A stretch of DNA of 39,194 nt. Source: a virus (lineage: Duplodnaviria > Caudoviricetes). Under the pieces are notes generated by a model, which was given only the letters and a program-made list of their open reading frames with translations, was not told where the DNA came from and searched no databases. The stretch's first letter is position 1, and each line of letters starts with the position of its first letter. Below are positions 451 through 36,794 of the stretch, piece after piece. The translations under genes were made by a program, and so were the position numbers. The stretch spans positions 1-39,194 of IMG/VR virus record IMGVR_UViG_3300048576_000459; one strand, written 5' to 3'.

Positions 451-477
451 AGAAATAACTCTACTTCTTTTTATTAT
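434..477. terminator. Bidirectional intrinsic terminator (perfect 19-bp inverted repeat)
   Basis: ATAATAAAAAGAAGTAGAG-aaataa-CTCTACTTCTTTTTATTAT, lying between convergent ORFs 1-450 and 461-532. Confidence 0.9.
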
Positions 478-532
478 TTCTTATTATTTTAATTTTCTTT
501 TTTCCCTCTTCATTCTTCACAATAATTAGCAA
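461..532 (-). CDS. Unannotated 23-aa basic mini-protein MLIIVKNEEGKKKIKIIRNNKKK (candidate AimX-like output)
   Basis: Hand translation: TTG start at 532, RBS AAGGGG 8 nt upstream, own sigma-A promoter (593-621) and terminator. Similar to ORF 36678-36794. Confidence 0.65.
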   Translation of the reverse strand: MLIIVKNEEGKKKIKIIRNNKKK

Positions 533-592
533 AGTATCATCCCCTTGTTTCCCATCCTGCATATATTTTTTTGTAGTTTTAACAATGAAATG

Positions 593-621
593 ATTATATA
601 AAAATTTTTTCCATTTTGCAA
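593..621 (-). promoter_or_regulatory. Sigma-A promoter for the 23-aa ORF
   Basis: TTGCAA(621-616)-17 bp-TATAAT(598-593) on the minus strand. Confidence 0.75.
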
Positions 622-624
622 ATT

Positions 625-667
625 AAAAAAAGTTGACTAAACTCTCATTGAATTTGGTCAACTTTTT
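625..667 (-). terminator. Intrinsic terminator after the pro-peptide gene
   Basis: Minus strand AAAAAGTTGACCAAAttcaatgagagTTTAGTCAACTTTTTTT: hairpin plus U tract. Confidence 0.8.
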
Positions 668-720
668 CCTTTTTTTGTAATTGTATTTTGTAGCATTTTT
701 TCAATTTCTATTTGTGATTT

Positions 721-879
721 TTACCATCCATCTGGGTCATTTACTTGTAAGTGAATTCGGTTTAAACTAGATGCTACGTAGCTTTTGCCAGTATTTGCAT
801 TTGTATTTTTATCTGCTGCAAATGCCACATTTGATAGTACCATAGCTACTGCTATTACTGTTACTATAATTTTTTTCAT
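721..879 (-). CDS. Unannotated 52-aa secreted signalling pro-peptide (AimP/Qsp/Phr-like)
   Basis: Hand translation MKKIIVTVIAVAMVLSNVAFA|ADKNTNANTGKSYVASSLNRIHLQVNDPDGW. Sec signal peptide with AFA cleavage site, RBS GGGGGTG, directly downstream of the HTH-TPR gene. Confidence 0.9.
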   Translation of the reverse strand: MKKIIVTVIAVAMVLSNVAFAADKNTNANTGKSYVASSLNRIHLQVNDPDGW

Positions 880-930
880 AAAATACACCCCCATTAAAAG
901 TTGACTTTTTTTACATTCATTCCCGTTAAC

Positions 931-939
931 ATTGTAACA
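931..939 (-). promoter_or_regulatory. Candidate extended -10 promoter of the pro-peptide gene
   Basis: TGtTACAAT on the minus strand; no clear -35 at canonical spacing. Confidence 0.45.
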
Positions 940-990
940 TAATATTGAAATTGCACGATAAAAAAATTTTTTTATTTTATTCCTTTAATT

Positions 991-2259
991 TTATTTAAGT
1001 TTATTAATTAATGCATCATTGAAATAGACACTTTTTTCCTCATTTCGATATCTATAATACTTTATAAGTTCTGCATAAATCAAATAACAATTTATATTTA
1101 GTTCATCTATCTTTTGCATTATCAATATTATGTTATCTTCATCTTCCCTTCCAATGTAAATCAACATTAAATTATGAATTATTTTTTCAACTATCTCCAC
1201 ATTCTCACCATTGTTTTTTTCCCACGCCTTTAATGCTCTTAAAAGATATATTTCAACATCTTCATTTATGAATCTAAGCACGTTTGATGCATAATATAGA
1301 TTTTCAGCTAGATACCAGTTTTTAGGATTGTTTTCCAATGACTTCTTTATCGTTGTTGCTGCATCCTTATATTTTTTTTGTTTTAAATATACCTCTGATA
1401 AATTCCTGTAAGCCATAGTCAGCAAACTTTTGTCATTAAGTTTCATCGATGGCTCTAATATTTCAATATATTCATTTGCAGCTTCTTCCAATCTATTCTG
1501 TTCAATGAGGCAATTTGCATGTAACATTTTTACATCAAGTAGCTTTTTCTCTTCCAATCTAAATTCATCTATTAATATTCTTAAATATTTTATGGATTTT
1601 TCATATCTACTCATTTTTTTATATGTTAGTGCTTTATTAAAATATATCCTCTTAAAAACCTCATCATCATTTATATTACTATTTAACTTTAAAGCATAAT
1701 CTAGCTGTTCTAACGCAACTGTATACTTCTTACAAATTGTATTATTGCGAGACTTAATTATATATAAGCCTGCTTCTTCTAATACATTTCCTGAGCTAAT
1801 ACATATTTTTAATCCACACCTACACATTTCGTCACTTTTATTATACTTTTCTTTAAAGTAATAAATATTAGCTGCTAGTTTATACATATCAATTTTCATA
1901 TTATCTTCAATGTTATATTTCTCTATTAAATCTTCTGCTTCACTCAGCTTTTTTTCAAGTGCATTTACTTCTTTGATTTCTTTTAACTCATTTATAATAT
2001 TCTTCTTTAATATATTGTTAGCTTGAATATCTTCAGTTATCATCAACTCTTCAGTTGTAATTAATCCAATATCTATTTTCTTCCTTTTTACAACTTTGTT
2101 TAAATTTTTAGCAAGCCCCACTGCTAATTTATAATTTAAATTTTTCTTATCATTTTCAATTCGACTAATTAAATATTTCGTGCAAACTCCCTCTGCAATT
2201 TCTTCTTGAGTTGCTCCAATAAGATTTCTAATATTTTTCAATTTTACATTCGGTGACAT
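991..2259 (-). CDS. RRNPP-family HTH-TPR peptide-sensing regulator (AimR/Qsr-like)
   Basis: N-terminal XRE HTH (LKNIRNLIGATQEEIAEGVCTKYLISRIEN), then TPR-like helical repeats (IYFNKALTYKKMSRYEKSIKYL; AYRNLSEVYLKQKKYKDAATTIKKSL). About 420 aa, adjacent to a pro-peptide gene. The true start may be ATT at 2277. Confidence 0.88.
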   Translation of the reverse strand: MSPNVKLKNIRNLIGATQEEIAEGVCTKYLISRIENDKKNLNYKLAVGLAKNLNKVVKRKKIDIGLITTEELMITEDIQANNILKKNIINELKEIKEVNALEKKLSEAEDLIEKYNIEDNMKIDMYKLAANIYYFKEKYNKSDEMCRCGLKICISSGNVLEEAGLYIIKSRNNTICKKYTVALEQLDYALKLNSNINDDEVFKRIYFNKALTYKKMSRYEKSIKYLRILIDEFRLEEKKLLDVKMLHANCLIEQNRLEEAANEYIEILEPSMKLNDKSLLTMAYRNLSEVYLKQKKYKDAATTIKKSLENNPKNWYLAENLYYASNVLRFINEDVEIYLLRALKAWEKNNGENVEIVEKIIHNLMLIYIGREDEDNIILIMQKIDELNINCYLIYAELIKYYRYRNEEKSVYFNDALINKLK

Positions 2260-2307
2260 GATCTCATTTTCAAAAATTGTTTTCTCCCCCTTTTTAAACT
2301 TGGTAAT

Positions 2308-2336
2308 ATTTTATATATGCTCGAATACCATGTCAA
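2308..2336 (-). promoter_or_regulatory. Sigma-A promoter of the receptor gene
   Basis: TTGACA(2336-2331)-17 bp-TAAAAT(2313-2308). Confidence 0.8.
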
Positions 2337-2407
2337 CAATCAAATTATGGAAATAGATATCTAATAAGAGCTATATAGGTCTATATATACTAACTGTTCC
2401 AAACAAA

Positions 2408-2443
2408 TAAAGACCAGGATAAATTAATTAATCCTAGCCTTTA
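2408..2443 (-). terminator. Terminator after the ltp-like gene
   Basis: Minus strand TAAAGGCTAGGAT...ATCCTGGTCTTTA followed by TTTGTTT. Confidence 0.7.
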
Positions 2444-2475
2444 GATTGTTAAATTAAATTGTGATTTTATTGTTT

Positions 2476-3123
2476 CTAATTTTCTAAATTGTTTATAGCG
2501 TATTGTGCTTCTTCTTCAGTAAATTTTTCACCTGCCTCAGATACTAATTGGTCATGGATAGCACTCTTAGACATACTCATTTTATTTTGATATGATTTAG
2601 CTTTAGCTAATGCATTCTTTTTCCAATCTGCTTTTACATTATCTACAGCATACTGTGCAGCTTCTTTAGGAAATTTTTCTCCAGCATCTGATGTTAATTG
2701 CTCATATAAACCTTTTTTAGATAAATTCATTTTGTTAGCATAAGTATCTGCTTTTTTTAATGCTGATTGATATTCCTTAGGTATATTATCTTTTGCTTTC
2801 TTAGCATCTGCATCTGCCTTCGCCTTCGCTTTTGCTTCTTCATCTGCTTTTTGTTTAGCAACTTCTGCTGCTTTTTCTTCTTCTGTTTTCTCTTTTGGTT
2901 GTTCTTGTACAGTTGCAGTTTCAGTTTTTGTTGTTGCAGTTTTACTATCTTTCTTGCCACCCATATTAGATATTAATACTATTGCAAAAAATATTGAGAT
3001 TACTATTTTAGCAACCTTATTCCATCTGCTATATTTCCACATAAGAAAGAGTCCTACTGGAAAAAAGAAAATTAGAAATAATATAATTGCTAAGTTTTTT
3101 TCATACCATTTTTGATTCATCAT
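2476..3123 (-). CDS. Ltp-family surface-exposed protein (putative superinfection exclusion)
   Basis: Two C-terminal Ltp repeats (ALKKADTY...LSKKGLYEQLTSDAGEKF..EAAQYAVDN; ALAKAKSY...MSKSAIHDQLVSEAGEKFTEEEAQYAINNL) and two N-terminal TM helices. Confidence 0.85.
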   Translation of the reverse strand: MMNQKWYEKNLAIILFLIFFFPVGLFLMWKYSRWNKVAKIVISIFFAIVLISNMGGKKDSKTATTKTETATVQEQPKEKTEEEKAAEVAKQKADEEAKAKAKADADAKKAKDNIPKEYQSALKKADTYANKMNLSKKGLYEQLTSDAGEKFPKEAAQYAVDNVKADWKKNALAKAKSYQNKMSMSKSAIHDQLVSEAGEKFTEEEAQYAINNLEN

Positions 3124-3150
3124 TATTCCCCCTTAAATATTTATACCTTA

Positions 3151-3178
3151 ATTGTATATTATTTGGAATTATTGTCAA
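3151..3178 (-). promoter_or_regulatory. Sigma-A promoter of the ltp-like gene
   Basis: TTGACA-16 bp-TACAAT on the minus strand. Confidence 0.65.
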
Positions 3179-3206
3179 ATTAATTAACCTTTATCCATCT
3201 ATAGGC

Positions 3207-3243
3207 AAAAAAATAAAGGGCATAGAAATTAATCTACACCCTT
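3207..3243 (-). terminator. Terminator after the endolysin
   Basis: Minus strand AAGGGTGTAGA-loop-TCTATGCCCTT-TATTTTTTT. Confidence 0.75.
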
Positions 3244-3270
3244 GAACGCTCTTACCTTATTTAATTATAT

Positions 3271-4203
3271 TTATAAGCCTAATAATGCTCTCCAAGTATT
3301 TTCTCCAATAACACCGTCTGCTTCTATGCCTTTAGATGATTGAAACCCAATTACTGCATTCTTTGTATTCTCTCCAAATATACCATCCACATCATCCCCT
3401 GTAAATCCTACTCTAAGCTGAATCCATTTAGTTATGTCCCCTCGGCCCCCTTCTTTAACTACTGGGCAATGCTTTAATGTATCGGGTCCAGGTATTCCAT
3501 CTACAACTATATCTCCAAAACCCTGTTGGTTAATCAGCTTTTGTAGTTGCGAATATATATTGTCTGTATTAGCTTGTACAGGTTGAATAGTTTCTCTTGG
3601 TGTATTTGTATTGCTTAGAAACATTAACCCGTTGTTATAGAAGTTATCCGTATCTACGTTTCCATCAATTCCGCTAACCGAACCACTTTCTGAATATTGG
3701 TGTCCTACATATTCACCCCACTTAGGTATTTCCATAGGCTTATTCACCCCATAATGAGCTATCCATAGCCAACTATTATTAGCTAATCTTTCGTCTAAAT
3801 TATCTTGTGCAAAATAAGCACCACTATAGATCATACAGTCTTGTCCGCTTATTTCTTTAAAATGGCTAATAAATTCTAAACATCTATCTGTTATCTCCTC
3901 AGAACTCCTCTCAAGATTATTAGTTTCAACATCAAGACAAGGTTTTATATCATACTCTCTATCCTTTATAGCATTATAAAAATCCTCTGCTTGTGTAGTA
4001 GGGCTAGTTTTTTCACTCATAAAATGATAAAAACCTATATGTGATACTCCTGATTTTTTTGCACCATTATAATATATTTCTAACCAATCATCTCTAAAAT
4101 CTACACCTTCAGTTGCTTTGATCATTACAACCTCAACGCCATCATTTTTGACAGCTTCAAAATCTATATTTCCATTATGACTTGATATATCTATTCCTTT
4201 CAT
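3271..4203 (-). CDS. Endolysin, GH25 muramidase with C-terminal peptidoglycan-binding domain
   Basis: KGIDISSHNG, KATEG, GFYHF, LDVE and QYSESG motifs; DGIFGENTKNAVIGFQ...DGVIGENTW binding domain. AGGAGG RBS favours the ATG at 4203 over 4224. Confidence 0.95.
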   Translation of the reverse strand: MKGIDISSHNGNIDFEAVKNDGVEVVMIKATEGVDFRDDWLEIYYNGAKKSGVSHIGFYHFMSEKTSPTTQAEDFYNAIKDREYDIKPCLDVETNNLERSSEEITDRCLEFISHFKEISGQDCMIYSGAYFAQDNLDERLANNSWLWIAHYGVNKPMEIPKWGEYVGHQYSESGSVSGIDGNVDTDNFYNNGLMFLSNTNTPRETIQPVQANTDNIYSQLQKLINQQGFGDIVVDGIPGPDTLKHCPVVKEGGRGDITKWIQLRVGFTGDDVDGIFGENTKNAVIGFQSSKGIEADGVIGENTWRALLGL

Positions 4204-4214
4204 TTTAAACCCTC

Positions 4215-4358
4215 CTACAAACATTTAATTACTATATAATCATGTTCTTCTTTTATAGCTGATTCTTGTACGCATATTCTACAAGAGTCATTTGCAAGCC
4301 TTATTTCTTTATCTACACCTAACTCTAATATTTTTTTGATTAATTCTTTTCCATTCAT
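4215..4358 (-). CDS. Unannotated 47-aa protein MNGKELIKKILELGVDKEIRLANDSCRICVQESAIKEEHDYIVIKCL
   Basis: Hand translation; GGGAGG RBS; stop codon overlaps the endolysin RBS. Confidence 0.7.
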   Translation of the reverse strand: MNGKELIKKILELGVDKEIRLANDSCRICVQESAIKEEHDYIVIKCL

Positions 4359-4399
4359 AGTAAAAACCTCCCAAAATTAAAATAGAGTAGCCACAAAGG

Positions 4400-4858
4400 C
4401 TACCCCTGTACTGAATTTAATGTATTATTTGTTTGTGTTGCTTCAATGGAATCCGTTGCAACTACTGACTGAACTTTCTTTAATTGCTCTTTAGCAGCTG
4501 TATTTTCTGCTTGTAATCTCGCATTATCCGCTTGCATTTGTCTTAATATTTCTGAATTATCTAAGACTGCTGCTTTACCCTTATTTATAGATCCCGCTAC
4601 ACTCTGCCTTAAGTTATCAATATCCTTTTGTGTAAGCTCTGGAAACTTTTCTATCAATGCATTATTAAATTCATCTACCTTAGATATTATCTTGTCTTCT
4701 ATTGTCTTACTTATTCTTTTGTTTTCATCTACCATGTCCCATATCTTCCCTGCCTCAGTAATGTAATTCTTATTTTTTAATATTTCCTCTTCAATCCCAC
4801 TTTTCTTTAGTCTACTTTCTAACACCTTTACAATTAATCCCAAAATTGTTTTTAACAT
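4400..4858 (-). CDS. Lysis-cassette protein with amphipathic N-terminus and coiled coil (possible second holin-like protein)
   Basis: Lies between holin and endolysin; AAGGA RBS favours the MLKTIL start. Confidence 0.55.
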   Translation of the reverse strand: MLKTILGLIVKVLESRLKKSGIEEEILKNKNYITEAGKIWDMVDENKRISKTIEDKIISKVDEFNNALIEKFPELTQKDIDNLRQSVAGSINKGKAAVLDNSEILRQMQADNARLQAENTAAKEQLKKVQSVVATDSIEATQTNNTLNSVQG

Positions 4859-4907
4859 TTTACATCCTTCTTTCATTTTTTTATATTAAAAAAGAGCAAC
4901 CAATTAG

Positions 4908-5324
4908 TTACTCTTTAATTTCTTTTTTCTCTCCATCTTTTAATTGTGCTAATGCTTCTTTAAGTTTATTCGGCACTGGTATCCCTAAACTTATTGCATT
5001 TTCTAATATACTTAATCCCTCATTTGCTATATAAAAATAGCAGACCATTGTCCTGAATAACCAAGTACCAGTATTTAAAAGTCTATCTAACGATACTGCA
5101 ACTATTAAAACCGAAAATATTATTGCTTTTCTTGCTATACCTTTTAGTCCTACATTTGAACTAAGTTTACCATTTATAAATCCCCTTAATACTCCTGTCA
5201 CATAATCTACAGCTATAAATGTTACTAAGACTATTAATGGTTTATCCCATGCACCGAATAGCCATGTTAGCATAGTGCCTATGACTGTTATTGCTGTTTT
5301 GAAATGTTTGGATACCTCTTCCAC
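4908..5324 (-). CDS. Holin (toxin secretion/phage lysis holin family)
   Basis: TM helices with DYVTGVLRG, LSSNVGLKGIARK and YIANEGLSILENAISLGIPVP motifs; GTG start with AAAGGAGG RBS. Confidence 0.93.
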   Translation of the reverse strand: MEEVSKHFKTAITVIGTMLTWLFGAWDKPLIVLVTFIAVDYVTGVLRGFINGKLSSNVGLKGIARKAIIFSVLIVAVSLDRLLNTGTWLFRTMVCYFYIANEGLSILENAISLGIPVPNKLKEALAQLKDGEKKEIKE

Positions 5325-5553
5325 TTTTTAACCTTCTTTCTTCTCTTCTTACACATAAATAAAAATATATTGATAATACGAATAAATAAAAATATAAAGT
5401 GCAATAATAAGCATGTAAAGACAGAAATACACATGTAATATACACGTGTTTGTCTTTGCATAAAGGAATGATGGATTTTATTTTCTCACAATTATATCTT
5501 CCGCATTCCTCTTTTCTTTTATGCATTGAATTATTTGAAAATTATTACAAAAT

Positions 5554-5584
5554 AAAAGAACCTACTAAACTTTAGTAAGTTCTT
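5554..5584 (-). terminator. Terminator at the end of the tail module
   Basis: Minus strand AAGAACTTACTAAA-G-TTTAGTAGGTTCTT-TTATTTT. Confidence 0.7.
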
Positions 5585-5644
5585 AATTTGCTGCTAATTC
5601 AAGTAGCTCTTATAATTATTTAATCTCCAAACGATTGGAATTTT

Positions 5645-5809
5645 CTATTGTGCTGTTTCAACACTTGTACCATTAACCATTCCTAATAATTCTTCATATT
5701 GCTCTTGTGTAATTTGGTTGAAAGTATAAAATACATTAAGTTTGTTAGTCATATCCTCCTTTGTAAATCTCTTATTAGTAATTAAATTTTTTAATAAATT
5801 GTATAACAT
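5645..5809 (-). CDS. Unannotated 54-aa XkdX-like protein
   Basis: Hand translation MLYNLLKNLITNKRFTKEDMTNKLNVFYTFNQITQEQYEELLGMVNGTSVETAQ; AGGAGGTG RBS; ITxEQYEEL motif. Confidence 0.8.
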   Translation of the reverse strand: MLYNLLKNLITNKRFTKEDMTNKLNVFYTFNQITQEQYEELLGMVNGTSVETAQ

Positions 5810-5810
5810 C

Positions 5811-6122
5811 TTATACACCTCCTGTTGTTAATTTTTCATATTTTATATTAGTAACTAGCTCTTGTAAGTCTAGTATTTGTTCTTTTAATATGTCTGTTTT
5901 TGTTTTTTCTACCTCTAAAGGTATAGGTTCACATTCTTTTATATAATCGAATAATCCTGTTCCTGTTGATAATTCCTTTAATCTAAATTGTTTTCCTTGG
6001 TTTTGTAATTCAAAAAACTTATTATAATCTTCATCAGTAATTTTTATATCTCCTGATATTATTTCATGTATTCCTTCTACAACAAACCCAAATTCTCCAT
6101 TTACTATTCTTAAATAATGCAT
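5811..6122 (-). CDS. Putative tail fibre assembly chaperone
   Basis: Follows the fibre gene; IKITDEDYNKFFELQNQGK motif; GGAGGTGG RBS. Confidence 0.6.
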   Translation of the reverse strand: MHYLRIVNGEFGFVVEGIHEIISGDIKITDEDYNKFFELQNQGKQFRLKELSTGTGLFDYIKECEPIPLEVEKTKTDILKEQILDLQELVTNIKYEKLTTGGV

Positions 6123-6137
6123 ATTTTACCACCTCCC

Positions 6138-7694
6138 CTAACATCCTATAGCCACCCAGCCAATATTAAATGTTTGCTTTCCCACATTAGTATCTGCGGC
6201 TTTCATTTTTATACGCATTTGTGTTTTGCTTTCTGTATTTGCATTTCCAATACATGTACTAGTATATATTTGTCCAAATTCCACATAACTTGCCGCATGA
6301 TCATCTCTACATATAACAGAAGCATTAGTATAAATTACCTTATTAGGAAAAGCTATAGGATAATTATAAGTATATTCAGCACCGAAATAATAACCAACTC
6401 CATATCCATATTGTATTATTGTCCCATCAGGATATTTAATCCATTTTGCCACACCAGTTGTCCCATAGGAAATTTTAGATATTACTGCAGATAATTCATT
6501 TATTGTACGCTGTTTGCCTTCCAAGTTATTATTTATTGCAATTAATCTAGTATCAAGAGTTTCTCCGCTACTTCCATTTACATAAACAGCTTTTGTATCC
6601 GTCTCAAAATGAAATACATCACTATTTTTATTCTGAAACTTCCCATGATAATAAGTGTGCGGTGCTCCACTGCTTGCATCCATCCAAGTATCATTATTTC
6701 TTTCTATATAATATGTTTTATCTATTCTATTAGGATGAGTTCCAATTCTATCATATTCGACTAGATTTATTTTTTCTGCTAAATTTAAAGCATCAATTTG
6801 TTTAACTAAGTTTTCTGCTTTAGTAATACTTGTACCTAAATTGGTATAATTAGTAGCAGAACTTGTATTTTGTTGCCCTAATGCAGTTATATTACTCCTA
6901 GCTTCTGTATTTTTACTATCCAACTTAGTTATATTACTAGTTGCATTAGTGTTTTGAATAGTTAAGCTTCCGATATTGGTTGTAGCACTAGCATTTTGAG
7001 CTACTAAATTATTTATATTTGCTGGTACTTTATCATTTTCGATTTTTAAATTAGCTGTATTAGTTGGTGCTTTAGTATTCTCTGCTTTTAAATTTATTAT
7101 ATTATTATTAGCAACATTATTTTGATTGGTTAAGTTTGTAATATTGGTTGTTGCCACACTGTTTTGGCTTGTTAAATTAGCTATGTTAGTAGTTGCTGCA
7201 TTGTTTTGAGTTAATAAATTAGTTATCTTAGTCTCTGCTGTTGCTATTAATTGATCCAGCTTAGTTATATCAATATCAGCTTTATTTAATGCTTCATTTA
7301 ATTCATCTAATAAATTTGCAACATTTTTGCTAACTTCCATGTCTTCTAACAATATACTTTTTATTACTGTTATTTTTACGCTAAAAGATGATACTTGTTT
7401 TCCACCACTTGTTATTACTAATTGTGCTTCTGCAATTCCATCACTTCTAGTGCAATTCCTCGGACAAATTACAGTAACGGTATTACCACTTGTGTTTACT
7501 AAATCTGTCGTTATTATAGTAATGGTATTGTTAGCATTAACATAATTAAGTGTAATACTGCACCCTGTTAAATCCTTTGCTACTCCATTCTCAAACAACT
7601 TAAATGTTAATACTATATCGTCATTTTGTTGAGCTTGTATAAATTTAATCTTGTCTTTCTTCAAATCGGATTTTATTTGTATATTATTTTGCAT
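6138..7694 (-). CDS. BppU-like baseplate upper / tail fibre protein
   Basis: N-terminal BppU-like domain, central coiled-coil repeats, C-terminal fibre-tip domain (WIKYPDGTIIQYG...YPIAFPN...WVAIG). Confidence 0.8.
   Translation of the reverse strand: MQNNIQIKSDLKKDKIKFIQAQQNDDIVLTFKLFENGVAKDLTGCSITLNYVNANNTITIITTDLVNTSGNTVTVICPRNCTRSDGIAEAQLVITSGGKQVSSFSVKITVIKSILLEDMEVSKNVANLLDELNEALNKADIDITKLDQLIATAETKITNLLTQNNAATTNIANLTSQNSVATTNITNLTNQNNVANNNIINLKAENTKAPTNTANLKIENDKVPANINNLVAQNASATTNIGSLTIQNTNATSNITKLDSKNTEARSNITALGQQNTSSATNYTNLGTSITKAENLVKQIDALNLAEKINLVEYDRIGTHPNRIDKTYYIERNNDTWMDASSGAPHTYYHGKFQNKNSDVFHFETDTKAVYVNGSSGETLDTRLIAINNNLEGKQRTINELSAVISKISYGTTGVAKWIKYPDGTIIQYGYGVGYYFGAEYTYNYPIAFPNKVIYTNASVICRDDHAASYVEFGQIYTSTCIGNANTESKTQMRIKMKAADTNVGKQTFNIGWVAIGC
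6849..7226 (-). repeat. About nine degenerate 14-aa (42-bp) repeats IxxLxxQNxxAxxN in the fibre stalk
   Basis: ITNLLTQNNAATTN / IANLTSQNSVATTN / ITNLTNQNNVANNN / IINLKAENTKAPTN / ... / ITALGQQNTSSATN. Confidence 0.85.
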
Positions 7695-7697
7695 ATC

Positions 7698-7937
7698 TTA
7701 CACCTCCAATACCTTGATATTTGTATCCTCTTTGACAAATTCAACTTTTCCATTAATTACTTTATAGTCCTTTATATTTTTAAGTAGAAACTCATCATAT
7801 TCTACATAAACGTAATTAATTAAATCTACTACATCCTCTTTTTCAGGTCCATAATAATCTAGTGTTTGTTTCCCTGAACAATAACATTTTATTACTCCTG
7901 ACTTTTTCATATAGAATAATGTTATTATGTTATCCAT
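7698..7937 (-). CDS. Small tail-module protein
   Basis: AGGAGG RBS; tightly packed between Tal and fibre genes. Confidence 0.7.
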   Translation of the reverse strand: MDNIITLFYMKKSGVIKCYCSGKQTLDYYGPEKEDVVDLINYVYVEYDEFLLKNIKDYKVINGKVEFVKEDTNIKVLEV

Positions 7938-7938
7938 A

Positions 7939-27896: not shown

Positions 27897-27900
27897 ACTT

Positions 27901-28188: not shown

Positions 28189-28192
28189 TGTT

Positions 28193-28354: not shown

Positions 28355-28384
28355 ATTTTTCACTCCTTATTTTAGTATTACGAA

Positions 28385-28588: not shown

Positions 28589-28781
28589 TGTTGCTCTTCC
28601 TCACTTTCTTACTTCTTCTCTTTAAAGCTAATTCATCTACTGGCCTATTTAATTCTTTTCTAAAACTTAAATACTCTTTAACAGAATAAAAAACTATTTT
28701 AAATATATTTGAGTATTTCTTACTACCTTTTCCATTCCCAGTACTGTAATATCTTAAATTACAACTTATATAATCAAGCAT
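28575..28781 (-). CDS. Hypothetical protein
   Basis: GAGGT RBS; overlaps both neighbours. Confidence 0.6.
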   Translation of the reverse strand: MLDYISCNLRYYSTGNGKGSKKYSNIFKIVFYSVKEYLSFRKELNRPVDELALKRRSKKVRKSNNDKL

Positions 28782-29376: not shown

Positions 29377-29399
29377 GTCCTCACCTCCTGGTTTTGTAA

Positions 29400-29990
29400 T
29401 TAGTCCATCTTATCAAAACTTATTACTTGGTATCCCTTACTTTTCAATGCAAACATAAAGTGATTTCTTGCAACAGTTCTTTTATTAGCTTGTCCTGTAT
29501 TTATTGATATAAAATATCCTGTGCCTATCCAGTTCCTTTTACCTTCACTCAATAATCCTGCTTTTTTAATAGCTTCAACTACTTTTTCTTCATTCCATCT
29601 TTTTAAAATTAAGAATGTTGAATCTAAATTTGCAGTTCCACCATCACGTATACTCTCTACAAATTCAATAGCTGCTTCTTTTGCTTCCTTAAGATCTAGT
29701 GTAAGTTTCTCATATTTATCTAATTTCTTGTCCTTAACTTTAACTATGGCCTGTACATCATTTATATAAATTATTGGTATCTCCCTCATGTATTTGCTCT
29801 CTCCCATCTTTAGTGCTATTATTCCGCTCTTTAGCTTTTTACTTGATATATCTGCTATTATCCCTCTACTTTCATGTTCTACTTTATTTAACACACTATG
29901 CTTTATAAGTACCTCTTCACCTATCTTAAAATCTTTTATGCTGTATTTACTCATATTTTTACTAATGAGAGTGTATTGTAAACCTCCCAT
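29400..29990 (-). CDS. Hypothetical protein
   Basis: GAGGAGG RBS; 196 aa in the early operon. Confidence 0.75.
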   Translation of the reverse strand: MGGLQYTLISKNMSKYSIKDFKIGEEVLIKHSVLNKVEHESRGIIADISSKKLKSGIIALKMGESKYMREIPIIYINDVQAIVKVKDKKLDKYEKLTLDLKEAKEAAIEFVESIRDGGTANLDSTFLILKRWNEEKVVEAIKKAGLLSEGKRNWIGTGYFISINTGQANKRTVARNHFMFALKSKGYQVISFDKMD

Positions 29991-30085
29991 TAAATCCTCC
30001 TCTCTAAATCTTTAATGTATAGTTCAGTTCTAAACTGGATATAATATTAGTAATTTAATATTATAAAGACTGGAGGTTGATCCAG

Positions 30086-30169
30086 GTGAAAAGAATTGGT
30101 TTTAGGATTATTGCAATTTTGCTTGCAGTAATGTTCATTGTCCTTACTATTTTTTTCAGAATTTATTAA
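30086..30169 (+). CDS. Unannotated 27-aa single-TM peptide MKRIGFRIIAILLAVMFIVLTIFFRIY
   Basis: Hand translation; GGAGGT RBS, GTG start, TATAAT at 30040-30045; opposite strand to the early operon. Confidence 0.6.
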   Translation: MKRIGFRIIAILLAVMFIVLTIFFRIY

Positions 30170-30316
30170 TTACACTATTCTGAAATTAACCAATTACTAT
30201 TTACTTTGTATAGCAGTTATTTGCTATACATCTTAGAGAATTAACATAAATAAAAAGTTATTGACTCTCTAAGTGGATCAACCTTTTAATATATTTCACA
30301 CTCATACCGTCTAAAT

Positions 30317-30790
30317 TTAATCCTCTACAAATCCATCCCACTTTAACTTTCCCCAATTACTTATGTTCCTGTAAAATGTATCTAGTCTATAAGACACCTC
30401 TTCTTTGGGTATAGCTAATGCATATGGTAATGCTCTTCTATCTCTATATTCACTTCCATAATATTTTTCTACTAACCTATAACAATCTTGTCTATTAACT
30501 AATTGAATATGCTTTTTTATTACATATTCATATCCATAATGGTAATAATTCAAGTTTGTCATTCCCTTATTTTCCCTAACTTCAGAATGTAGGCCTATTT
30601 CATGTTTAAATATTCTTATATTGTCTTCATTCTCCAGGGCATACCATTCGTAATACCCTGGATATTTTTCTGTTAGTTCTGTATGTGGTATGTCCTCAAG
30701 GTTTATGTGTTCATTTCTAGTTTTTAATATACTTTCTATAGTTTCTTCCTCCAAGCTCTCCATATCTTTAAATAGAAAATAGAAAAACAT
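30317..30790 (-). CDS. Hypothetical protein
   Basis: 157-aa ORF packed behind DUF3102. Confidence 0.7.
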   Translation of the reverse strand: MFFYFLFKDMESLEEETIESILKTRNEHINLEDIPHTELTEKYPGYYEWYALENEDNIRIFKHEIGLHSEVRENKGMTNLNYYHYGYEYVIKKHIQLVNRQDCYRLVEKYYGSEYRDRRALPYALAIPKEEVSYRLDTFYRNISNWGKLKWDGFVED

Positions 30791-30795
30791 TTTCT

Positions 30796-31776
30796 TTACA
30801 GCCTTTCCAACATCACATTTATAAACTTTTTAGTAGCATTTTTATATTTTTCTCTTTCTTCTTCAAGTTTTATTTGTCCAATTGATCCTATTAGCTTGTC
30901 AAAATAATCTACTAATGCGTTAAAATAAATTGCATATCTTATTGTTGCATCGTCTACATCTACTTCTTCACTTTCTTTTAGTTTTATCTCTAATTCCTCT
31001 TTTTCCTTGTTAAGCTTATCTAATTCGGATTGCTTTTCCATATTTAGCTTGTCCAATTCAGCTTGCTTTTCTTCCTTAAGTCTTTCTATTTCCTCTTCTA
31101 GTTCTTTATTAGGTTCAGCTACTCCAGTAACTTCTATTGGCCTATCCTCTAATTCTTTAATCTTTTTCTCGTAATCTTTGGATGTTTTTTCGTATTCTTT
31201 TACCTTCAACTCATATTCCTTAGCTTCTGCCTTTGCCCGGAAAGCCTCAGAATTTTTAGTTGCTGCATCTTTCTTAAGCTTTTCTATTATTTCTTTACTT
31301 TTCTCTGCCATAGTTTCTCTTTCTTTTAGTTTTATCTCTACCTCTTCTCTTGCTTCTTTTTCTTTTTTTAAATCCTCTATTGCCTTTTTTAATTCCCTAG
31401 AAGACATATCCTCTACATTGTTTTCTTTTATAAATTCTTCTCTATCCTCTGAAGGTATTCCTAAAAGTGCTATTGCTTGTGTATAACTTAATTCTCCAAA
31501 CGCTTGGCATTTTGCATTGTCTCCTAAAAGACTTAGCTGGTCTGCTCCATATTCTTCAAATATCTTCATGAAGTTATTTGCTGTTGATTTTTTATAATCT
31601 ACCGATACCTCTAACCAATTCCCCCACTCTCCATGTGGCACTAGTTCTTTTGCTTCTGTTAACTTCCTGCCTATCTCAATAACGCTATATAGAACTTGTC
31701 TTCTAGTCTGCTCCTTGATGTGATTTATCTCTGCTGCTATTACCTCTGGTGTTCTTGATAATGCTAATCCTTCCAT
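30796..31776 (-). CDS. DUF3102-domain coiled-coil protein
   Basis: IEIGRKLTEAKELVPHGEWGNWL...STANNFMKIF and LSYTQAIALL motifs. Confidence 0.9.
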   Translation of the reverse strand: MEGLALSRTPEVIAAEINHIKEQTRRQVLYSVIEIGRKLTEAKELVPHGEWGNWLEVSVDYKKSTANNFMKIFEEYGADQLSLLGDNAKCQAFGELSYTQAIALLGIPSEDREEFIKENNVEDMSSRELKKAIEDLKKEKEAREEVEIKLKERETMAEKSKEIIEKLKKDAATKNSEAFRAKAEAKEYELKVKEYEKTSKDYEKKIKELEDRPIEVTGVAEPNKELEEEIERLKEEKQAELDKLNMEKQSELDKLNKEKEELEIKLKESEEVDVDDATIRYAIYFNALVDYFDKLIGSIGQIKLEEEREKYKNATKKFINVMLERL

Positions 31777-31788
31777 CTCTTAATCCCC

Positions 31789-33408
31789 CTATGCTACCTT
31801 TTTAGATTTTTTCTTAGACTTATTTAAAATTGCTTTTTTATACTCTTCTATAAATTCCAATACTTCTTGTTTGGGCCTTGTATCATGTATCCCATATGCT
31901 TGTTTAACCTCATTCCTTTTAACTTCTACTGTAACTAAAGGAATATTAGGTTTATCTATCTTTCTAACTACAAGTATTATTGTTTTACCTTCTGCATATG
32001 GCTCTAGATAATGAGTTGCTACACAATGGTCTAGCTTTTTGCCCTCCTCAATCAGTTCCTCTGAGCTTTCTGCCGCTCTAATTAGATAATCACCATATTT
32101 AAAGCTATACTTTTCTAACTTTTCTAACCTTGATTTTATTTTGTTATTTAATATTTTGCTTGCTGCTATTTTTATTTGTTTGACTATATTATCATGTGAT
32201 TTAAAAACATTTTTAGGAAATAGCACATGTTCATTCTTCATGTTCATCTCTAGCTTTTTACAGCCTTCCAAGTAATCCTTATAAGTTATTAATGTATCTA
32301 CATATTGCTTGTCTTTCCCATACTTTTCTTTTTGTTTATCCATGTATCTTGTGCATGCCTTTAAACTCGAATATTTAGATACTTTGAAAAAGTAGTCAGA
32401 ATGTCCTTCATATCTGTAGTTTACTTTTCTCACCTCTTCAGGAGTAAGTTTTGAATTATCAGCTATATTTATTTGATACAATTTCAAGAAAACTGGATAA
32501 CACTCTATTCCACTTTCCTTTATTGCTTTTACTTCTGCTCTATTTAATTTTAGGAATTTGAATACATCTGTTTGTTTCCATCTAACAGTTCCTTGTAAAG
32601 AATAGCCATTTACCATGCTATTGGCTATTTTATCGAATCCCATCTTAATTAATCTTTCAATTATTGGATATTTATTATATACGTAAAAGAAATTAGTCAT
32701 ATCCTCTCCATAACCCATATATAATTTATATGGACTATATCTAAACCTTGTACCTTCTACAGCTCTATCAATACTATCAGTATCTACATAATCTCTATAA
32801 TTGCCATAGCCATCTTTATAGCTGCAACAACCATTTCTTTTACTCCATCCCGAAATTGCCCATTTAGTAAGCATAATACTTTTTCCTTGCTGAAAAATAT
32901 ATCTCGATAATTCTGTATACTGTGTTCTTACCTTTTTATAATCTCCACTATAATCCCTCTTAACAAAATATCCCCTTGCTACTAATACTTCAGGATCTAT
33001 TGGTGATTTATCATAAGTAATAAAAATGGCCCTATCATTCAAATTACTTCTTCTATACCTATCAAACTTAACCATACATTCGCTTCCACATTCTTCACAT
33101 GCTACAAAAGAATTATGCTTTATTGTATCTCCTACTTCTTCCACATTAACTTCATATTCTTTTTTGCAGTGAGTACAATATGCAAAATATCTCTTTTGTT
33201 TCTGTTCTCTACCATTCAGATACATTTTGTATATCTCTTTTCTTATAAAAATATACCTGCTACTTTTTAATGCTGTATTTATAACAAACTCTTCCACTTC
33301 CTTAGATATTTCAGTTCTGAAATGCTCTAACAGTTTTTCTATTTCGGTTTTTTCTTTTTCACGCTTCTCATTTTTCTTAGCGTAGTATTCACACATCACT
33401 CTAATCAC
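31789..33408 (-). CDS. PcfJ-domain protein
   Basis: YKDYL, LFPKN...HD, ELIEEGKKLDHCV..Y and TVEV...QAYG motifs; N-terminal CxxC pairs. Confidence 0.9.
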   Translation of the reverse strand: MIRVMCEYYAKKNEKREKEKTEIEKLLEHFRTEISKEVEEFVINTALKSSRYIFIRKEIYKMYLNGREQKQKRYFAYCTHCKKEYEVNVEEVGDTIKHNSFVACEECGSECMVKFDRYRRSNLNDRAIFITYDKSPIDPEVLVARGYFVKRDYSGDYKKVRTQYTELSRYIFQQGKSIMLTKWAISGWSKRNGCCSYKDGYGNYRDYVDTDSIDRAVEGTRFRYSPYKLYMGYGEDMTNFFYVYNKYPIIERLIKMGFDKIANSMVNGYSLQGTVRWKQTDVFKFLKLNRAEVKAIKESGIECYPVFLKLYQINIADNSKLTPEEVRKVNYRYEGHSDYFFKVSKYSSLKACTRYMDKQKEKYGKDKQYVDTLITYKDYLEGCKKLEMNMKNEHVLFPKNVFKSHDNIVKQIKIAASKILNNKIKSRLEKLEKYSFKYGDYLIRAAESSEELIEEGKKLDHCVATHYLEPYAEGKTIILVVRKIDKPNIPLVTVEVKRNEVKQAYGIHDTRPKQEVLEFIEEYKKAILNKSKKKSKKVA

Positions 33409-33797
33409 TCCTCCTGTCCTAATAATTCTTTTAGATTTACGCTAAAATTTTTATGTTGAGTTATTGGCTCTTGTACTACTGGCTTAACCTCTTCCGCTTC
33501 TAACTTAAATATTTTATCTTGTACTGCTTCAAGTCCGTAATATTTTCTAACAAGCTTGTACACTTCTGCATCTTCCAATACTGCACAATTTCCAACAGCT
33601 TTTTTCCTTGCAACTTTCTCGACTTCTTTTAAACTCTTTTGTATTGTTTTTTCACCGCTTACTATTTTTTCTGCTGCATCTTTATTAATTTCTATTTGTT
33701 TTAATAGATAATTTCCAATCGCTTGGACATATGAATTTTTGCTTTTTGCCATTTCTGACTTTATTTTTTCTATTGCTTTTTCAATCATTTTTTCCAC
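33405..33797 (-). CDS. PcfK-like protein (AcrIIA9-related family)
   Basis: KTIQKSL...ARKKAVGNCAVLEDAEVYKLVRKYY; directly upstream of pcfJ. Confidence 0.75.
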   Translation of the reverse strand: MEKMIEKAIEKIKSEMAKSKNSYVQAIGNYLLKQIEINKDAAEKIVSGEKTIQKSLKEVEKVARKKAVGNCAVLEDAEVYKLVRKYYGLEAVQDKIFKLEAEEVKPVVQEPITQHKNFSVNLKELLGQEE

Positions 33798-33801
33798 CTC
33801 T

Positions 33802-34554
33802 TCAATTTAATTTCCGCATTTTTATATAAATATAAGTACCTGCATTTATTTCATTTACATCAACCTTGTAATTTGTATATGTGTATCCTGGATAAAGTTT
33901 TTCAAATACTTCCCTATCACCTTGGCACTTGCTTAACTCCCATGCCTTTCTATGTGAATATTTATAATCATTCACTTTTATTATTGGTTGCTTCAAATTT
34001 CTACTGCCTGACCATCTCTTTTTTCCTTTAGGATCTTTCATCATGTATTTTGCTAGTGCTTCATATCCAAATTCATCTGCTTTCAATCTATCTGCATTAG
34101 CTCTACCATGTCCCCACATTTTTTCTAACTCATCTCTATCTATTCCACCAGATATTACTACATGATGATGTATCCTTGTTCTGGTCCTTTTATCTTCTGT
34201 AGCTTCTTTATATTCCGTTACCACCATATATCTTAGTGGCTCTAATCCTTTTCTTTTTCTGCGTCTGCTTACTCTTGCAAAATAGTTCTTAAGTTTTCTC
34301 TTAGCCTCTTCTTCATCTTTTGGCAGGTTATTCTTATCGTATGTCAAATGAAGTGCTATATCTTCATCTGTAAAATTTTCATGCATCACTCTTACAAAAT
34401 GTTTCTTTGCATTCTTATCATTTAAGTTTTTTTGTTTATTTAGTGATACCTTTTTCTTCTTTCCTCTCTTCTGTTTTTGTTCTTGTTTTGTTATTGGATA
34501 GATTTCAACTTCCAAATACTTGCCACTATATATCCTCTTCTCTCTTATTGGCAT
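33802..34554 (-). CDS. HUH-superfamily rolling-circle Rep-like endonuclease
   Basis: Motif I LHLTY, motif II RIHHHVVI, motif III LAKYMMK in Rep order, followed by WSGSRNL. Confidence 0.8.
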   Translation of the reverse strand: MPIREKRIYSGKYLEVEIYPITKQEQKQKRGKKKKVSLNKQKNLNDKNAKKHFVRVMHENFTDEDIALHLTYDKNNLPKDEEEAKRKLKNYFARVSRRRKRKGLEPLRYMVVTEYKEATEDKRTRTRIHHHVVISGGIDRDELEKMWGHGRANADRLKADEFGYEALAKYMMKDPKGKKRWSGSRNLKQPIIKVNDYKYSHRKAWELSKCQGDREVFEKLYPGYTYTNYKVDVNEINAGTYIYIKMRKLN

Positions 34555-34639
34555 TTCTCTCTACTCCTATTCACCTTTAGTAATTCATCTTAGTTAATAT
34601 AGTTCTAAAGATAATACCTATTACAAGCCCGATAAAAGG

Positions 34640-34668
34640 TTGTTTTATAGCCATTTTTACGCTATAAT
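34640..34668 (+). promoter_or_regulatory. Antisense sigma-A promoter in the rep leader
   Basis: TTGTTT(34640-34645)-17 bp-TATAAT(34663-34668). Confidence 0.6.
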
Positions 34669-34674
34669 GAATAT

Positions 34675-34738
34675 GAGGTTTTTAATCAGGCTTCACACAC
34701 ATTGCAAGCTTTGGACGGGTTGCAATGTGTATTTTTTT
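34675..34738 (+). ncRNA. Candidate ~65-nt antisense (countertranscript-like) RNA
   Basis: Promoter upstream; perfect 11-bp stem ACACATTGCAA/TTGCAATGTGT around GCTTTGGACGGG, then ATTTTTTT; no RBS-linked ORF. Confidence 0.55.
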
Positions 34739-34763
34739 GTAATAGTTTCATTGATAACTGTTT

Positions 34764-35147
34764 TCAATAAAGTTTTCCTCCCATGCAAGCTCGAATAACT
34801 TTCTCTTTGTCAAATTTTCCATTCTTAGCTATTACAAGTTTTAGGAGCTTGTCCAGGTTCTTTCCTCCAAGTTTTAATGATTCCTGAATTTCTTCTCTAG
34901 TTAATTCTTTACTTTTTAATCTGTAATCTAGTTCTTCTTGGACCCTTAATTTAAGTTCTTTATCAAATTGCTTATTATGATGTGCTCCTGCTCTATGATC
35001 TCTATGGTGATAGTGGCATAAATAAATGAAATTAAACTCACTATCTTCTAATGGCTTGCACTCACTTTTGAAAATAATATGGTGTAGTTCTGCATAATTC
35101 GCACCACAAATTTGACAATAATGTATTTCTTTCATCCTTACCCCCAA
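34764..35147 (-). CDS. HNH-like zinc-binding nuclease
   Basis: CQIC...ELHHIIF...N..YLCHYHH...GAH. Confidence 0.75.
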   Translation of the reverse strand: MGVRMKEIHYCQICGANYAELHHIIFKSECKPLEDSEFNFIYLCHYHHRDHRAGAHHNKQFDKELKLRVQEELDYRLKSKELTREEIQESLKLGGKNLDKLLKLVIAKNGKFDKEKVIRACMGGKLY

Positions 35148-35422
35148 GCAAATAGTTTGCTATCATCTATCTGTATCTTTTCCCGTTTTCTCCCTTTAAA
35201 TAGTGTTTCTTTTTGTCCTTTCTTTGACTCCCTTTCTGCTACGTTTTCTTCTGCTGCCACTCTCATGTTTAAGTGCGCATTTTCTGAATAAATAACTCTT
35301 ACAGATGTTACTTTTAAATCAAATTTCTTTGCAGCTTCTTTAATCAATTCTTGTGGATCACTACCATAAAAATTTTCTTGTATATACTCTGCTGCTTTTG
35401 CTGTTCTAGTATTTCTAGCCAA
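35138..35422 (-). CDS. Hypothetical protein
   Basis: AGGAGGG RBS, TTG start. Confidence 0.72.
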   Translation of the reverse strand: MARNTRTAKAAEYIQENFYGSDPQELIKEAAKKFDLKVTSVRVIYSENAHLNMRVAAEENVAERESKKGQKETLFKGRKREKIQIDDSKLFAWG

Positions 35423-35433
35423 ATCAATCCCTC

Positions 35434-35796
35434 CTATTCTAATAATTCAATTTTCTCTAGTACTACAGTCTCGCATATTATGTCCTGCTCCATGTACTCT
35501 CTGCTTGGTTCATCCCATTCATAAATATTTGCTTTTAGTTTTCCATCCTTGTCCTTATATAAGATAAATGGACACTTTCTACAAATAATTTCTTCAATCA
35601 GTTTATACTTGTCTTCCCTTAATTCACTTACCAAATGCGAAAATTCACTTTTGTCTACTATTTCATAAGCTTCTTTAATTGTTTCTCTTACCAAATTATT
35701 AAACTCTTCCAGCGCTCTACTATAGTTAGTTGCAAATATTTCTGTATCTCCTTCATATCCCATACAATCCACTACATAAACCTTAAATATATTCAC
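35434..35796 (-). CDS. Hypothetical protein
   Basis: AAGGAGAGG RBS favours the GTG at 35796 over 35832. Confidence 0.7.
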   Translation of the reverse strand: MNIFKVYVVDCMGYEGDTEIFATNYSRALEEFNNLVRETIKEAYEIVDKSEFSHLVSELREDKYKLIEEIICRKCPFILYKDKDGKLKANIYEWDEPSREYMEQDIICETVVLEKIELLE

Positions 35797-35864
35797 ATTA
35801 CCTCTCCTTTTATTTATAAATTCTTTCAGCATACGGTAAAGTATTGTTGAAAGGAGGTGCTTTC

Positions 35865-36065
35865 ATGAGCGATTTTCAAAAGCAACTTATCTCTGACCTT
35901 GCTAAAAAATATACATTTGAAACATTTAATTTTTCAGACAAATCTCCTGAAGATTTATTAACTGCTTACCAAGAAACTTTTGATAAAATTTCAAAAGTAA
36001 TTGATGAACAAAATTCTGAAATTGAAAGAGAATGTACGACTTCTTGGTTAAATTCACAAAATTAA
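35865..36065 (+). CDS. Small acidic protein on the strand opposite the early operon
   Basis: AAAGGAGGTG RBS before the ATG at 35865; stop overlaps the convergent gene. Confidence 0.75.
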   Translation: MSDFQKQLISDLAKKYTFETFNFSDKSPEDLLTAYQETFDKISKVIDEQNSEIERECTTSWLNSQN

Positions 36066-36310
36066 TTTACTTTTGTAAGTCTTAAAATTTCTATGCAGAA
36101 TTTAAGAATTGCTGTTGCTCTGTGTATAGTAATTGAATTTCCCTTAAATTCATTAATTATATTTTTCGCAATAGACTCTTCTACTGAATTTTGTATTGAA
36201 ATTCCATTGTAATTAATGCAATTTATTGTATTTATTACTGCTTTCATTTCTTTTGAAACAGACTGCTCTTGAACTGGTACTTCAGGAGCAGTTTCTTTTT
36301 TCTTTGCCAC
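36062..36310 (-). CDS. Hypothetical protein
   Basis: AAGGAGGGGAG RBS; GTG start overlaps the abrB stop. Confidence 0.72.
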   Translation of the reverse strand: MAKKKETAPEVPVQEQSVSKEMKAVINTINCINYNGISIQNSVEESIAKNIINEFKGNSITIHRATAILKFCIEILRLTKVN

Positions 36311-36555
36311 TATCTCCCCTCCTTAATATCTTTCATGCAACTTTTGCATATGTTCTTACCCTTGAAATTGACTACGTTACCTGCTTCTCCACAGAATACA
36401 CAGCTTGGCTCATATTTCTTTAATATGATTTCTTCACCTTCTACATAGATTTCTAAAGAATCTTTTTCTGCTACATTTAATGTTCTTCTAGTTTCTATTG
36501 GGATAACTATTCTCCCTAAATCGTCCACTCTTCTTACTACTCCTGTACTTTTCAT
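36310..36555 (-). CDS. abrB: AbrB-family transition-state regulator (clostridial type with C-terminal CxxC pairs)
   Basis: MKSTGVVRRVDDLGRIVIPIETRRTL...LEIYVEGEEIILKKY..SCVFCG...ICKSC. Confidence 0.93.
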   Translation of the reverse strand: MKSTGVVRRVDDLGRIVIPIETRRTLNVAEKDSLEIYVEGEEIILKKYEPSCVFCGEAGNVVNFKGKNICKSCMKDIKEGR

Positions 36556-36677
36556 TTCCTTTTCCTCCTCTAAATTTATTCCTTGTTGTAATACATCTAC
36601 TTAGAATCACCGTAGTATGATTTTGTGGTGAAGCTTGTACATTAATTGTTTTTTAAGTTTAAAATTACCGAATGTAA

Positions 36678-36794
36678 TCACTTTCTATTCCCACAAACTA
36701 TATCTGCTGCTTCTTTTCTTCTGTCTTCCCCATTGCAAGTACTGACTACATACACTTTTCTTTTACCTTCAATGCAAGCCACATGTATTTTCAT
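36678..36794 (-). CDS. Unannotated 38-aa protein MKIHVACIEGKRKVYVVSTCNGEDRRKEAADIVCGNRK
   Basis: Hand translation; GAGGGGAG RBS within the end of cro; N-terminus similar to ORF 461-532. Confidence 0.7.
   Translation of the reverse strand: MKIHVACIEGKRKVYVVSTCNGEDRRKEAADIVCGNRK

What the first reader, a model, noticed from the sequence alone, without database searches (positions are those of the whole stretch)
461..36794. The cassette's 23-aa mini-protein resembles the mini-gene behind cro: candidate link from peptide signal to genetic switch
Seen: ORF 461-532 (MLIIVKNEEGKKKIKII) and ORF 36678-36794 (MKIHVACIEGKRKVYVV) align from the start Met without gaps. They share 7 of 17 identical residues plus K/R and three I/V pairs, in a strand-EGK-strand pattern. 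Neither is in the ORF track, and both have an RBS. Inference: a family of basic beta-hairpin peptides with one target, such as the acidic C-terminal domain of CI (antirepressor) or the integrase (directionality factor). One copy would be signal-controlled and the other would give early-lytic positive feedback, or the short copy could be a competitive decoy. The alignment is short, so chance is possible.
Basis: partly seen in the sequence, partly recalled or inferred. Interest (0 to 1): 0.85.

Follow-up and report, generated by a model that had tools for sequence, protein, structure and literature searches.

The report
Twin mini-antirepressors in clostridial prophages
This clostridial prophage carries two related tiny genes, one behind a peptide-signalling cassette and one behind cro, an arrangement that recurs in related prophages (often with a DNA-damage box in place of the cassette); the first likely inactivates the phage repressor and the second would likely lock in the switch to lysis.

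Summary
The resemblance is real. Alone it is marginal (6 of 16 identities beyond the start codon; 2 of 1687 window ORF pairs score as high). Relatives settle it. Prophages with this repressor family carry a mini-gene behind cro and often a second copy at the far attachment end. A profile of three foreign far-end copies ranks ORF 461-532 first and ORF 36678-36794 second of 1049 small ORFs. Looked up by position alone, a far-end copy was present at 6 of 8 loci. Of 13 far-end copies without a peptide cassette, 9 carry a clostridial LexA box; 0 of 3 cassette-linked copies do. ORF 461-532 sits in the slot that spo0E-like genes fill in chromosomal Qss cassettes. CI has no cleavage domain, and its C-terminal domain matches AimC, the target of Bacillus AimX antirepressors. 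Best reading: an AimX-like antirepressor wired to a non-arbitrium receptor, with an early-lytic paralog as likely positive feedback.

The parts
461..532 (-). miniA: 23-aa basic beta-hairpin mini-protein, output gene of the cassette, candidate antirepressor
   Evidence: near-orthologue in G339 (TTG start, 22 aa, 9 of first 18 residues identical)
434..477 (.). bidirectional terminator shared by miniA and the converging double-HTH gene; holds miniA's last codons
593..622 (-). sigma-A-like promoter in front of miniA; no LexA box (3 mismatches)
   Evidence: 10 of 12 match; such matches are no more frequent than in shuffles; aligns with chromosomal Qss cassettes and in register with the LexA-boxed promoter of G339
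625..669 (-). terminator-like hairpin after the peptide gene, conserved with compensatory changes
   Evidence: 5 of 19 pairs with a two-sided change in 7 sequences
721..879 (-). 52-aa secreted-type signalling propeptide (QssP-like)
991..2259 (-). HTH-TPR RRNPP receptor of the Clostridium Qss kind
1..450 (+). double-HTH gene converging on miniA; marks the same prophage end in relatives
36678..36794 (-). miniB: 38-aa hairpin-plus-helix paralog directly behind cro
36769..36999 (-). cro-like HTH gene
37015..37161 (.). three TTCAC-N4-GTGAA operator-like sites between cro and cI
37285..37647 (+). 120-aa CI: HTH plus acidic AimC-type oligomerisation domain, no autocleavage domain
37644..39194 (+). 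large serine integrase

Best explanation
ORF 461-532 and ORF 36678-36794 are paralogous mini-genes conserved at the same two positions in related prophages, and ORF 461-532 likely encodes the trigger antirepressor that the peptide cassette switches on, predicted to bind the C-terminal oligomerisation domain of CI, while the post-cro copy would likely reinforce that inhibition once the lytic promoter fires. Shown: the paralogy, the two conserved positions, the upstream control elements and the kinship of CI's C-terminal domain to AimC. Inferred steps: (1) the Qss-type receptor raises miniA expression at the promoter and hairpin it controls in chromosomal cassettes, and its peptide counteracts this, so that high lysogen density favours lysogeny (polarity inferred by analogy); (2) the basic hairpin binds the acidic CI domain and breaks oligomers; (3) the cro operon is freed; (4) miniB made from it keeps CI off, so a brief signal becomes commitment. 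In most relatives LexA controls the far-end copy; here a host-type quorum cassette has taken that role.
For: Profile of three foreign far-end copies: miniA 17.7 bits (E 1.6e-4, rank 1), miniB 11.8 bits (E 0.011, rank 2) of 1049 small window ORFs; a combined profile holding neither window ORF: 23.3 and 13.6 bits, next 4.5. Blind by position: a converging hairpin mini-gene at 2 of 3 and 4 of 5 double-HTH loci. A prediction noted held: G131's cassette mini and its post-cro mini are both of the KRVxLxIKK type. G325's two copies share 11 of 12 residues with synonymous changes. Far-end genes show codon-position identity 0.64/0.60/0.40, and 64 of 120 conserved residues differ synonymously (anchored on the motif, so inflated). 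Published clostridial LexA motif GAAC-N4-GTT[TC] (PMC4234289, passages) within 130 nt upstream of 9 of 13 cassette-free far-end copies, 0 of 3 cassette-linked ones; a looser pattern is found at 30 of 2105 background starts; 0 of 11 post-cro copies have a box within one mismatch. CI has only HTH families; family profile matches AimC 9IAQ over residues 37-140 (E 2.5e-10) and the phi106 repressor of 9SF2 (E 1.9e-6); the C-terminal part alone gives 9IAQ 105-140 as best hit (E 0.0087); model shows helix-hairpin-helix. CI 66-120 has 12 acidic against 5 basic residues, miniA 9 basic against 2 acidic. miniA's start falls where the spo0E-like gene starts in chromosomal cassettes.
Against: A profile of post-cro copies alone gives miniA only 2.9 bits, within noise. 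The hairpin profiles do not link the KRVxLxIKK type to the GK type, so 'one family' is shown only within each type. Matching of cognate copies is significant across types (p 5e-5, n=11) but not within the window's type (p 0.055, n=7; 0.16 without G325), and types follow CI clades, so kinship may explain it. No far-end copy was found in G135, G139, G142, G310 or at the G103 locus. Three cassette-free copies (G134, G290, G287) have no box and a fourth (G328) only a looser one. No sequence match to any solved antirepressor, including the 9SF2 entry. Characterised AimX proteins are mostly helical (bioRxiv 2025.11.23.689978). miniB has a conserved extra helix that could change its job. An antirepressor inside a CI-repressed operon could make lysogeny harder to establish.
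Confidence: 0.6

Rival explanations
1. miniA is the antirepressor, but miniB does the opposite or something else: it competes for the same CI surface without breaking the oligomer, or tunes Cro, and so damps or delays lysis.
For: miniB-type copies carry a conserved C-terminal helix that far-end copies lack; the post-cro profile scores miniA poorly.
Against: Some post-cro copies are as short as far-end ones (21 aa in L053, 19-25 aa in L044-L048). G325's copies are nearly identical in the hairpin. In L015 the first early gene resembles the prophage's own CI C-terminal domain (score 68, 0 of 5000 shuffles), the classic antirepressor design.
Confidence: 0.17
2. Both peptides act on the integrase or the double-HTH protein as excision (directionality) factors, or on a host protein.
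For: The far-end copy lies near the attachment end and converges on the double-HTH gene; SOS-boxed and early-lytic expression would suit an excision factor too.
Against: The GK-type hairpin goes with integrases of 50-54% and about 26% identity to the window's; peptide type follows CI clade; G145 has a boxed far-end copy with no double-HTH hit; CI needs an inactivator and none other was seen among the 15 window proteins scanned.
Confidence: 0.12
3. miniA works as RNA (antisense to the double-HTH gene or terminator read-through) or is an untranslated remnant; the protein likeness reflects shared Lys/Ile-rich, AT-rich composition.
For: TTG start, modest RBS, tail inside a terminator; low-complexity peptides align easily.
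Against: Start, RBS, frame and GK turn are kept across 16 far-end loci with synonymous divergence; the terminator is bidirectional; in Bacillus phages the antisense model was tested and the protein was needed.
Confidence: 0.08

Closest known systems
Extended arbitrium module aimR-aimP-aimX-aimC-aimL of Bacillus phages (Kabel et al., bioRxiv 10.1101/2025.11.23.689978; parts 1-4 and 7 of 7 read, plus a term search; PDB 9IAQ, 9SF2)
   Same: RRNPP receptor, peptide, terminator, tiny ORF; short cleavage-less repressor with the same kind of C-terminal domain; LexA box on the small gene in phi106; small gene co-varies with the repressor.
   Different: The receptor is a Clostridium Qss type; the small gene lies 36 kb from cI at the other prophage end (about 2.4 kb away across the integrase in the circular form) and faces a double-HTH gene, not cI; it is a basic beta-hairpin, shorter than the 29-80 aa given for AimX; a paralog sits behind cro. 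The term search found no 'Clostridi', 'second copy' or 'positive feedback' in the main text; its supplementary files could not be seen.
QssR-QssP / Qsr-Qsp systems of solventogenic clostridia (PMC7206700, passages; PMC7376267, abstract; bioRxiv 2021.07.15.452460, passages)
   Same: Receptor relatives at 46-71%, same propeptide, hairpin and downstream promoter; some were reported in prophages.
   Different: The reported or predicted output is spo0E or abrB and host sporulation or solvent formation; here the output slot holds a paralog of a lytic-switch gene.
LexA-controlled phage antirepressors (Gifsy and Fels-2 type; PMC3121763 seen as a search listing only; details recalled) and SinI/SinR
   Same: An unlinked, SOS-boxed small gene that would inactivate a non-cleavable repressor.
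   Different: No sequence likeness found; the minis are not copies of CI's own C-terminal domain as SinI is of SinR's (hhalign probability 0.3%).

Membership tests
Extended arbitrium (AimX-AimC) | AimR-family receptor | tested here: inconclusive
   All named homologues are Clostridium HTH-TPR proteins and no annotated phage, AimR phages included, matched by tblastn; no direct comparison with an AimR sequence was run
Extended arbitrium (AimX-AimC) | Small ORF downstream of the peptide gene, same direction, after a terminator | tested here: met
Extended arbitrium (AimX-AimC) | aimC directly downstream and convergent, with divergent aimL | tested here: not met
   cI/cro lie at the other end; a double-HTH gene is the convergent neighbour. 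L015 and L020 do have the convergent repressor
Extended arbitrium (AimX-AimC) | Short repressor, no autocleavage domain, AimC-type oligomerisation domain | tested here: met
Extended arbitrium (AimX-AimC) | Small protein binds the repressor and blocks oligomerisation | not testable with these tools
AimX sequence families | Sequence similarity to a characterised AimX | tested here: inconclusive
   family profile finds no antirepressor chain in PDB at E up to 10; AimX proteins are highly divergent and only PDB chains were searched
Clostridium Qss RRNPP cassette | HTH-TPR receptor followed by a propeptide gene | tested here: met
Clostridium Qss RRNPP cassette | spo0E-like gene downstream | tested here: not met
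   miniA occupies that slot; spo0E label of the neighbours' gene is recalled and agrees with PMC7206700
LexA-controlled antirepressor | SOS box in the promoter | tested here: not met
   none at miniA (3 mismatches); present at 9 of 13 cassette-free relatives
SinI-type mimic | Homology to the repressor's oligomerisation domain | tested here: not met
Serine-integrase directionality factor | Co-varies with and binds the integrase | tested here: inconclusive
   co-variation not seen; binding untested

The most novel reading that the evidence does not exclude
Clostridial prophages use a two-copy antirepressor switch: an exchangeable sensor-side copy at the attachment end (LexA, or either of two unrelated RRNPP cassettes) and a latch copy behind cro. 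This prophage has swapped SOS input for a captured host quorum cassette, an independently evolved arbitrium-like lysis-lysogeny communication system outside Bacillus with an 18-35 aa beta-hairpin antirepressor.
Probability: 0.42. Interest if true: 0.86.

Novelty: new variant of a known kind. Interest (0 to 1): 0.7.

Why it matters
The phage peptide systems shown to steer lysis and lysogeny in the papers seen here are Bacillus arbitrium systems, and clostridial prophage RRNPP cassettes were proposed to steer host sporulation. This locus points to a second origin of peptide-controlled lysis decisions, gives a candidate answer to how cleavage-less clostridial repressors are induced, and suggests a design (sensor copy plus latch copy of one tiny antirepressor) that I did not find in print (searches; most subscription journals are not covered). 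All parts are small and testable with a three-gene reporter.

Tried and rejected
Complex prediction of CI with miniA: tool not available, no verdict. Pfam and PHROGs: no family for either mini-ORF. ESM Atlas: no usable hit for miniB. phmmer of miniB over 1.84 billion representatives: 6 hits, 5 true short relatives and 1 repeat protein dropped. DNA repeat search: no shared repeat between the two regions among the families shown; 25 of 51 bases identical. Degenerate DNA patterns: 0 of 130 genomes; 1 viral hit, the G134 copy already known; the SOS-box pattern gave 5 hits judged chance. Annotated phages: no receptor match, only abrB-like matches. None of 18 other viral records with this CI family carries the A1 receptor family; many are incomplete. 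Sequencing runs: no RNA holder listed. Earlier scan findings: 3 look-ups, nothing. One paper search was uninformative. SinI-type mimicry rejected. The 33-aa ATG form of miniA rejected as the natural start. L015's cassette mini versus its early gene: not significant (p 0.11). G133/G174, G146/G170 and L049/G328 appear to be the same prophages and were counted once.

Full report
Setting. The window is a whole 39-kb prophage record. Its right end holds cro (36769-36999), a 120-aa cI and a serine integrase; its left end, beyond lysin and a lipoprotein gene, holds an HTH-TPR receptor (991-2259), a propeptide (721-879), ORF 461-532 (miniA) and a converging double-HTH gene (1-450). Named receptor homologues are from Clostridium.

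The observation. Both ORFs and the alignment are as described, with the caveat that one of the seven identities is the start codon (TTG in miniA). Within the window the match is suggestive only: p 0.0014 anchored, 0.018 local, and one unrelated pair among 1687 scores higher.

The post-cro gene is a conserved family. Among loci with this CI family, a mini-gene lies directly behind cro, or first in the early operon where no cro was seen, in 24 of the 26 close-family loci L038-L048 and L049-L067 that I could list by eye without duplicates of one record; I did not score this count formally. By eye there are three types: a GK-turn hairpin (the window's), a KRVxLxIKK type, and a third type in prophages with no match to the window's integrase. 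Lengths run from 19 to about 55 aa, so a 23-aa member is full length. The miniB model is a hairpin (2-8, 11-17) plus a helix, at low confidence (pLDDT 65).

The far-end gene is conserved too, and is the same family. G134 has an 18-aa copy in miniA's position that scores 22 bits (E 3e-6) against the post-cro profile, whereas miniA itself scores only 2.9 bits. Searching for the double-HTH gene and then looking at what converges on it gave hairpin mini-genes at 2 of 3 loci and, as a prospective test, 4 of 5. G339's copy is a near-orthologue of miniA: TTG start, 22 aa, aligned RBS, promoter and terminator. A profile from three foreign far-end copies ranks miniA first and miniB second among 1049 small window ORFs; G134's copy in that profile had been spotted by likeness, the other two by position. 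Using each prophage's own post-cro peptide as query, its far-end copy ranks first in 9 of 11 records and third in 2; five of the 11 had been found by similarity, and of the other six, four rank first. In all, 16 far-end copies were collected. None was found in G135, G139, G142, G310 or at the G103 locus.

The two copies vary together by type. I predicted that G131, whose cassette resembles the window's (receptor 59% identical) but whose cassette mini is of the second type, would have a second-type post-cro gene; it does. G325 has a different RRNPP receptor, a peptide gene and a hairpin, then a mini that shares 11 of 12 residues with its own post-cro copy. Cognate matching is significant over all 11 pairs (p 5e-5) but not within the window's type (p 0.055), and types follow CI clades, so this shows type matching, not fine co-evolution. 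The design also recurs with unrelated helical peptides: in L020 the cassette mini and the first early gene are clearly alike (score 69, 0 of 5000 shuffles); in L015 they are not, but the early gene resembles that prophage's CI C-terminal domain.

What controls the far-end copy. The published clostridial LexA motif lies within 130 nt upstream of 9 of 13 cassette-free copies (G077's was found through its box, so 8 of 12 otherwise); a looser pattern chosen after seeing the data gives 10 of 13 against 1.4% of background starts. In several records it is the only such box in 34-60 kb. None of the three cassette-linked copies matches the published motif; G325 has a one-mismatch variant, and the window and G131 have none. 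In the window, miniA starts where the spo0E-like gene starts in chromosomal Qss cassettes, behind the same hairpin and promoter. The slot is therefore an output slot with an exchangeable input.

The likely target. CI has no autocleavage domain, so induction needs another factor. The CI family profile matches AimC of BMBtp14 along its length, and the C-terminal part alone has AimC's oligomerisation domain as best PDB hit; it also matches the phi106 repressor deposited in complex with AimX. In Bacillus phages AimX binds that domain and blocks oligomerisation; phi106 AimX is 29 aa, LexA-boxed, and the only one predicted with a beta sheet. CI's domain is acidic and the minis are basic. An SOS-boxed tiny gene in a prophage with such a repressor is most simply its antirepressor (about 0.75). 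That miniB binds the same surface follows from homology (about 0.65); that it acts as positive feedback is the weakest step (about 0.5). Signal polarity rests on analogy: QspB peptides counteract QsrB (abstract), and spo0E-like genes rose in strains over-expressing qssR and qssP (passages).

Limits. No binding prediction could be run, and there are no expression data. Relatives are related by descent, so counts are not independent. Short Lys/Ile-rich peptides align easily; the case rests on position, control elements and profile ranks together. Supplements of the bioRxiv papers could not be seen and may list clostridial cases or second copies.

Verdict. A real, conserved feature: a new variant of the AimX-AimC logic with a non-arbitrium receptor, an unlinked beta-hairpin trigger gene and an early-lytic paralog. 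Interest 0.7.

Noticed in passing
L015 3977-5222; L020 3738-4973: Qss-type cassettes in a full extended-arbitrium layout (receptor, peptide, helical mini, convergent repressor) with a CGAAC-N4-GTTTG box; the divergent first early gene is a paralog of the mini (L020) or a copy of CI's C-terminal domain (L015) instead of an HTH Cro.
   Followed up: partly
G325, G290, G174, G047, G079, G170 (L180, L197, L175-L176, L136, L132, L193): Prophages with the window's integrase clade sit next to a Mg-chelatase-like gene (Pfam; comM/yifB by recall) and genes that look like dprA and topA (recalled), so integration may disrupt a transformation gene.
   Followed up: partly
window 1-450: The double-HTH gene is conserved at the attachment end opposite the integrase; it is a candidate directionality factor or regulator.
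   Followed up: partly
G325:C1 about 1836400-1838200 (L180 16426-18195): A distant RRNPP receptor and propeptide drive the same mini-gene family: a probable second capture of a peptide cassette.
   Followed up: partly
L039, L041, L052, L055-L061, L065, L066: No cro was seen; a mini-gene of a third type is the first early gene, and no far-end copy was found in the three records checked.
   Followed up: partly
L118 1483-1605 and 2250-2333; L120 1474-1605: G031 has two hairpin copies within its early region; G017 has a long-form copy behind a lipoprotein gene beyond the lysin.
   Followed up: no
window 36310-36555 and 2476-3123: AbrB-like gene in the early operon and an Ltp-type superinfection-exclusion lipoprotein next to the cassette.
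   Followed up: no
window 628-637, 659-668, 896-905: The motif AAAGTTGAC of the post-peptide hairpin recurs just upstream of the peptide gene; possible receptor site.
   Followed up: no
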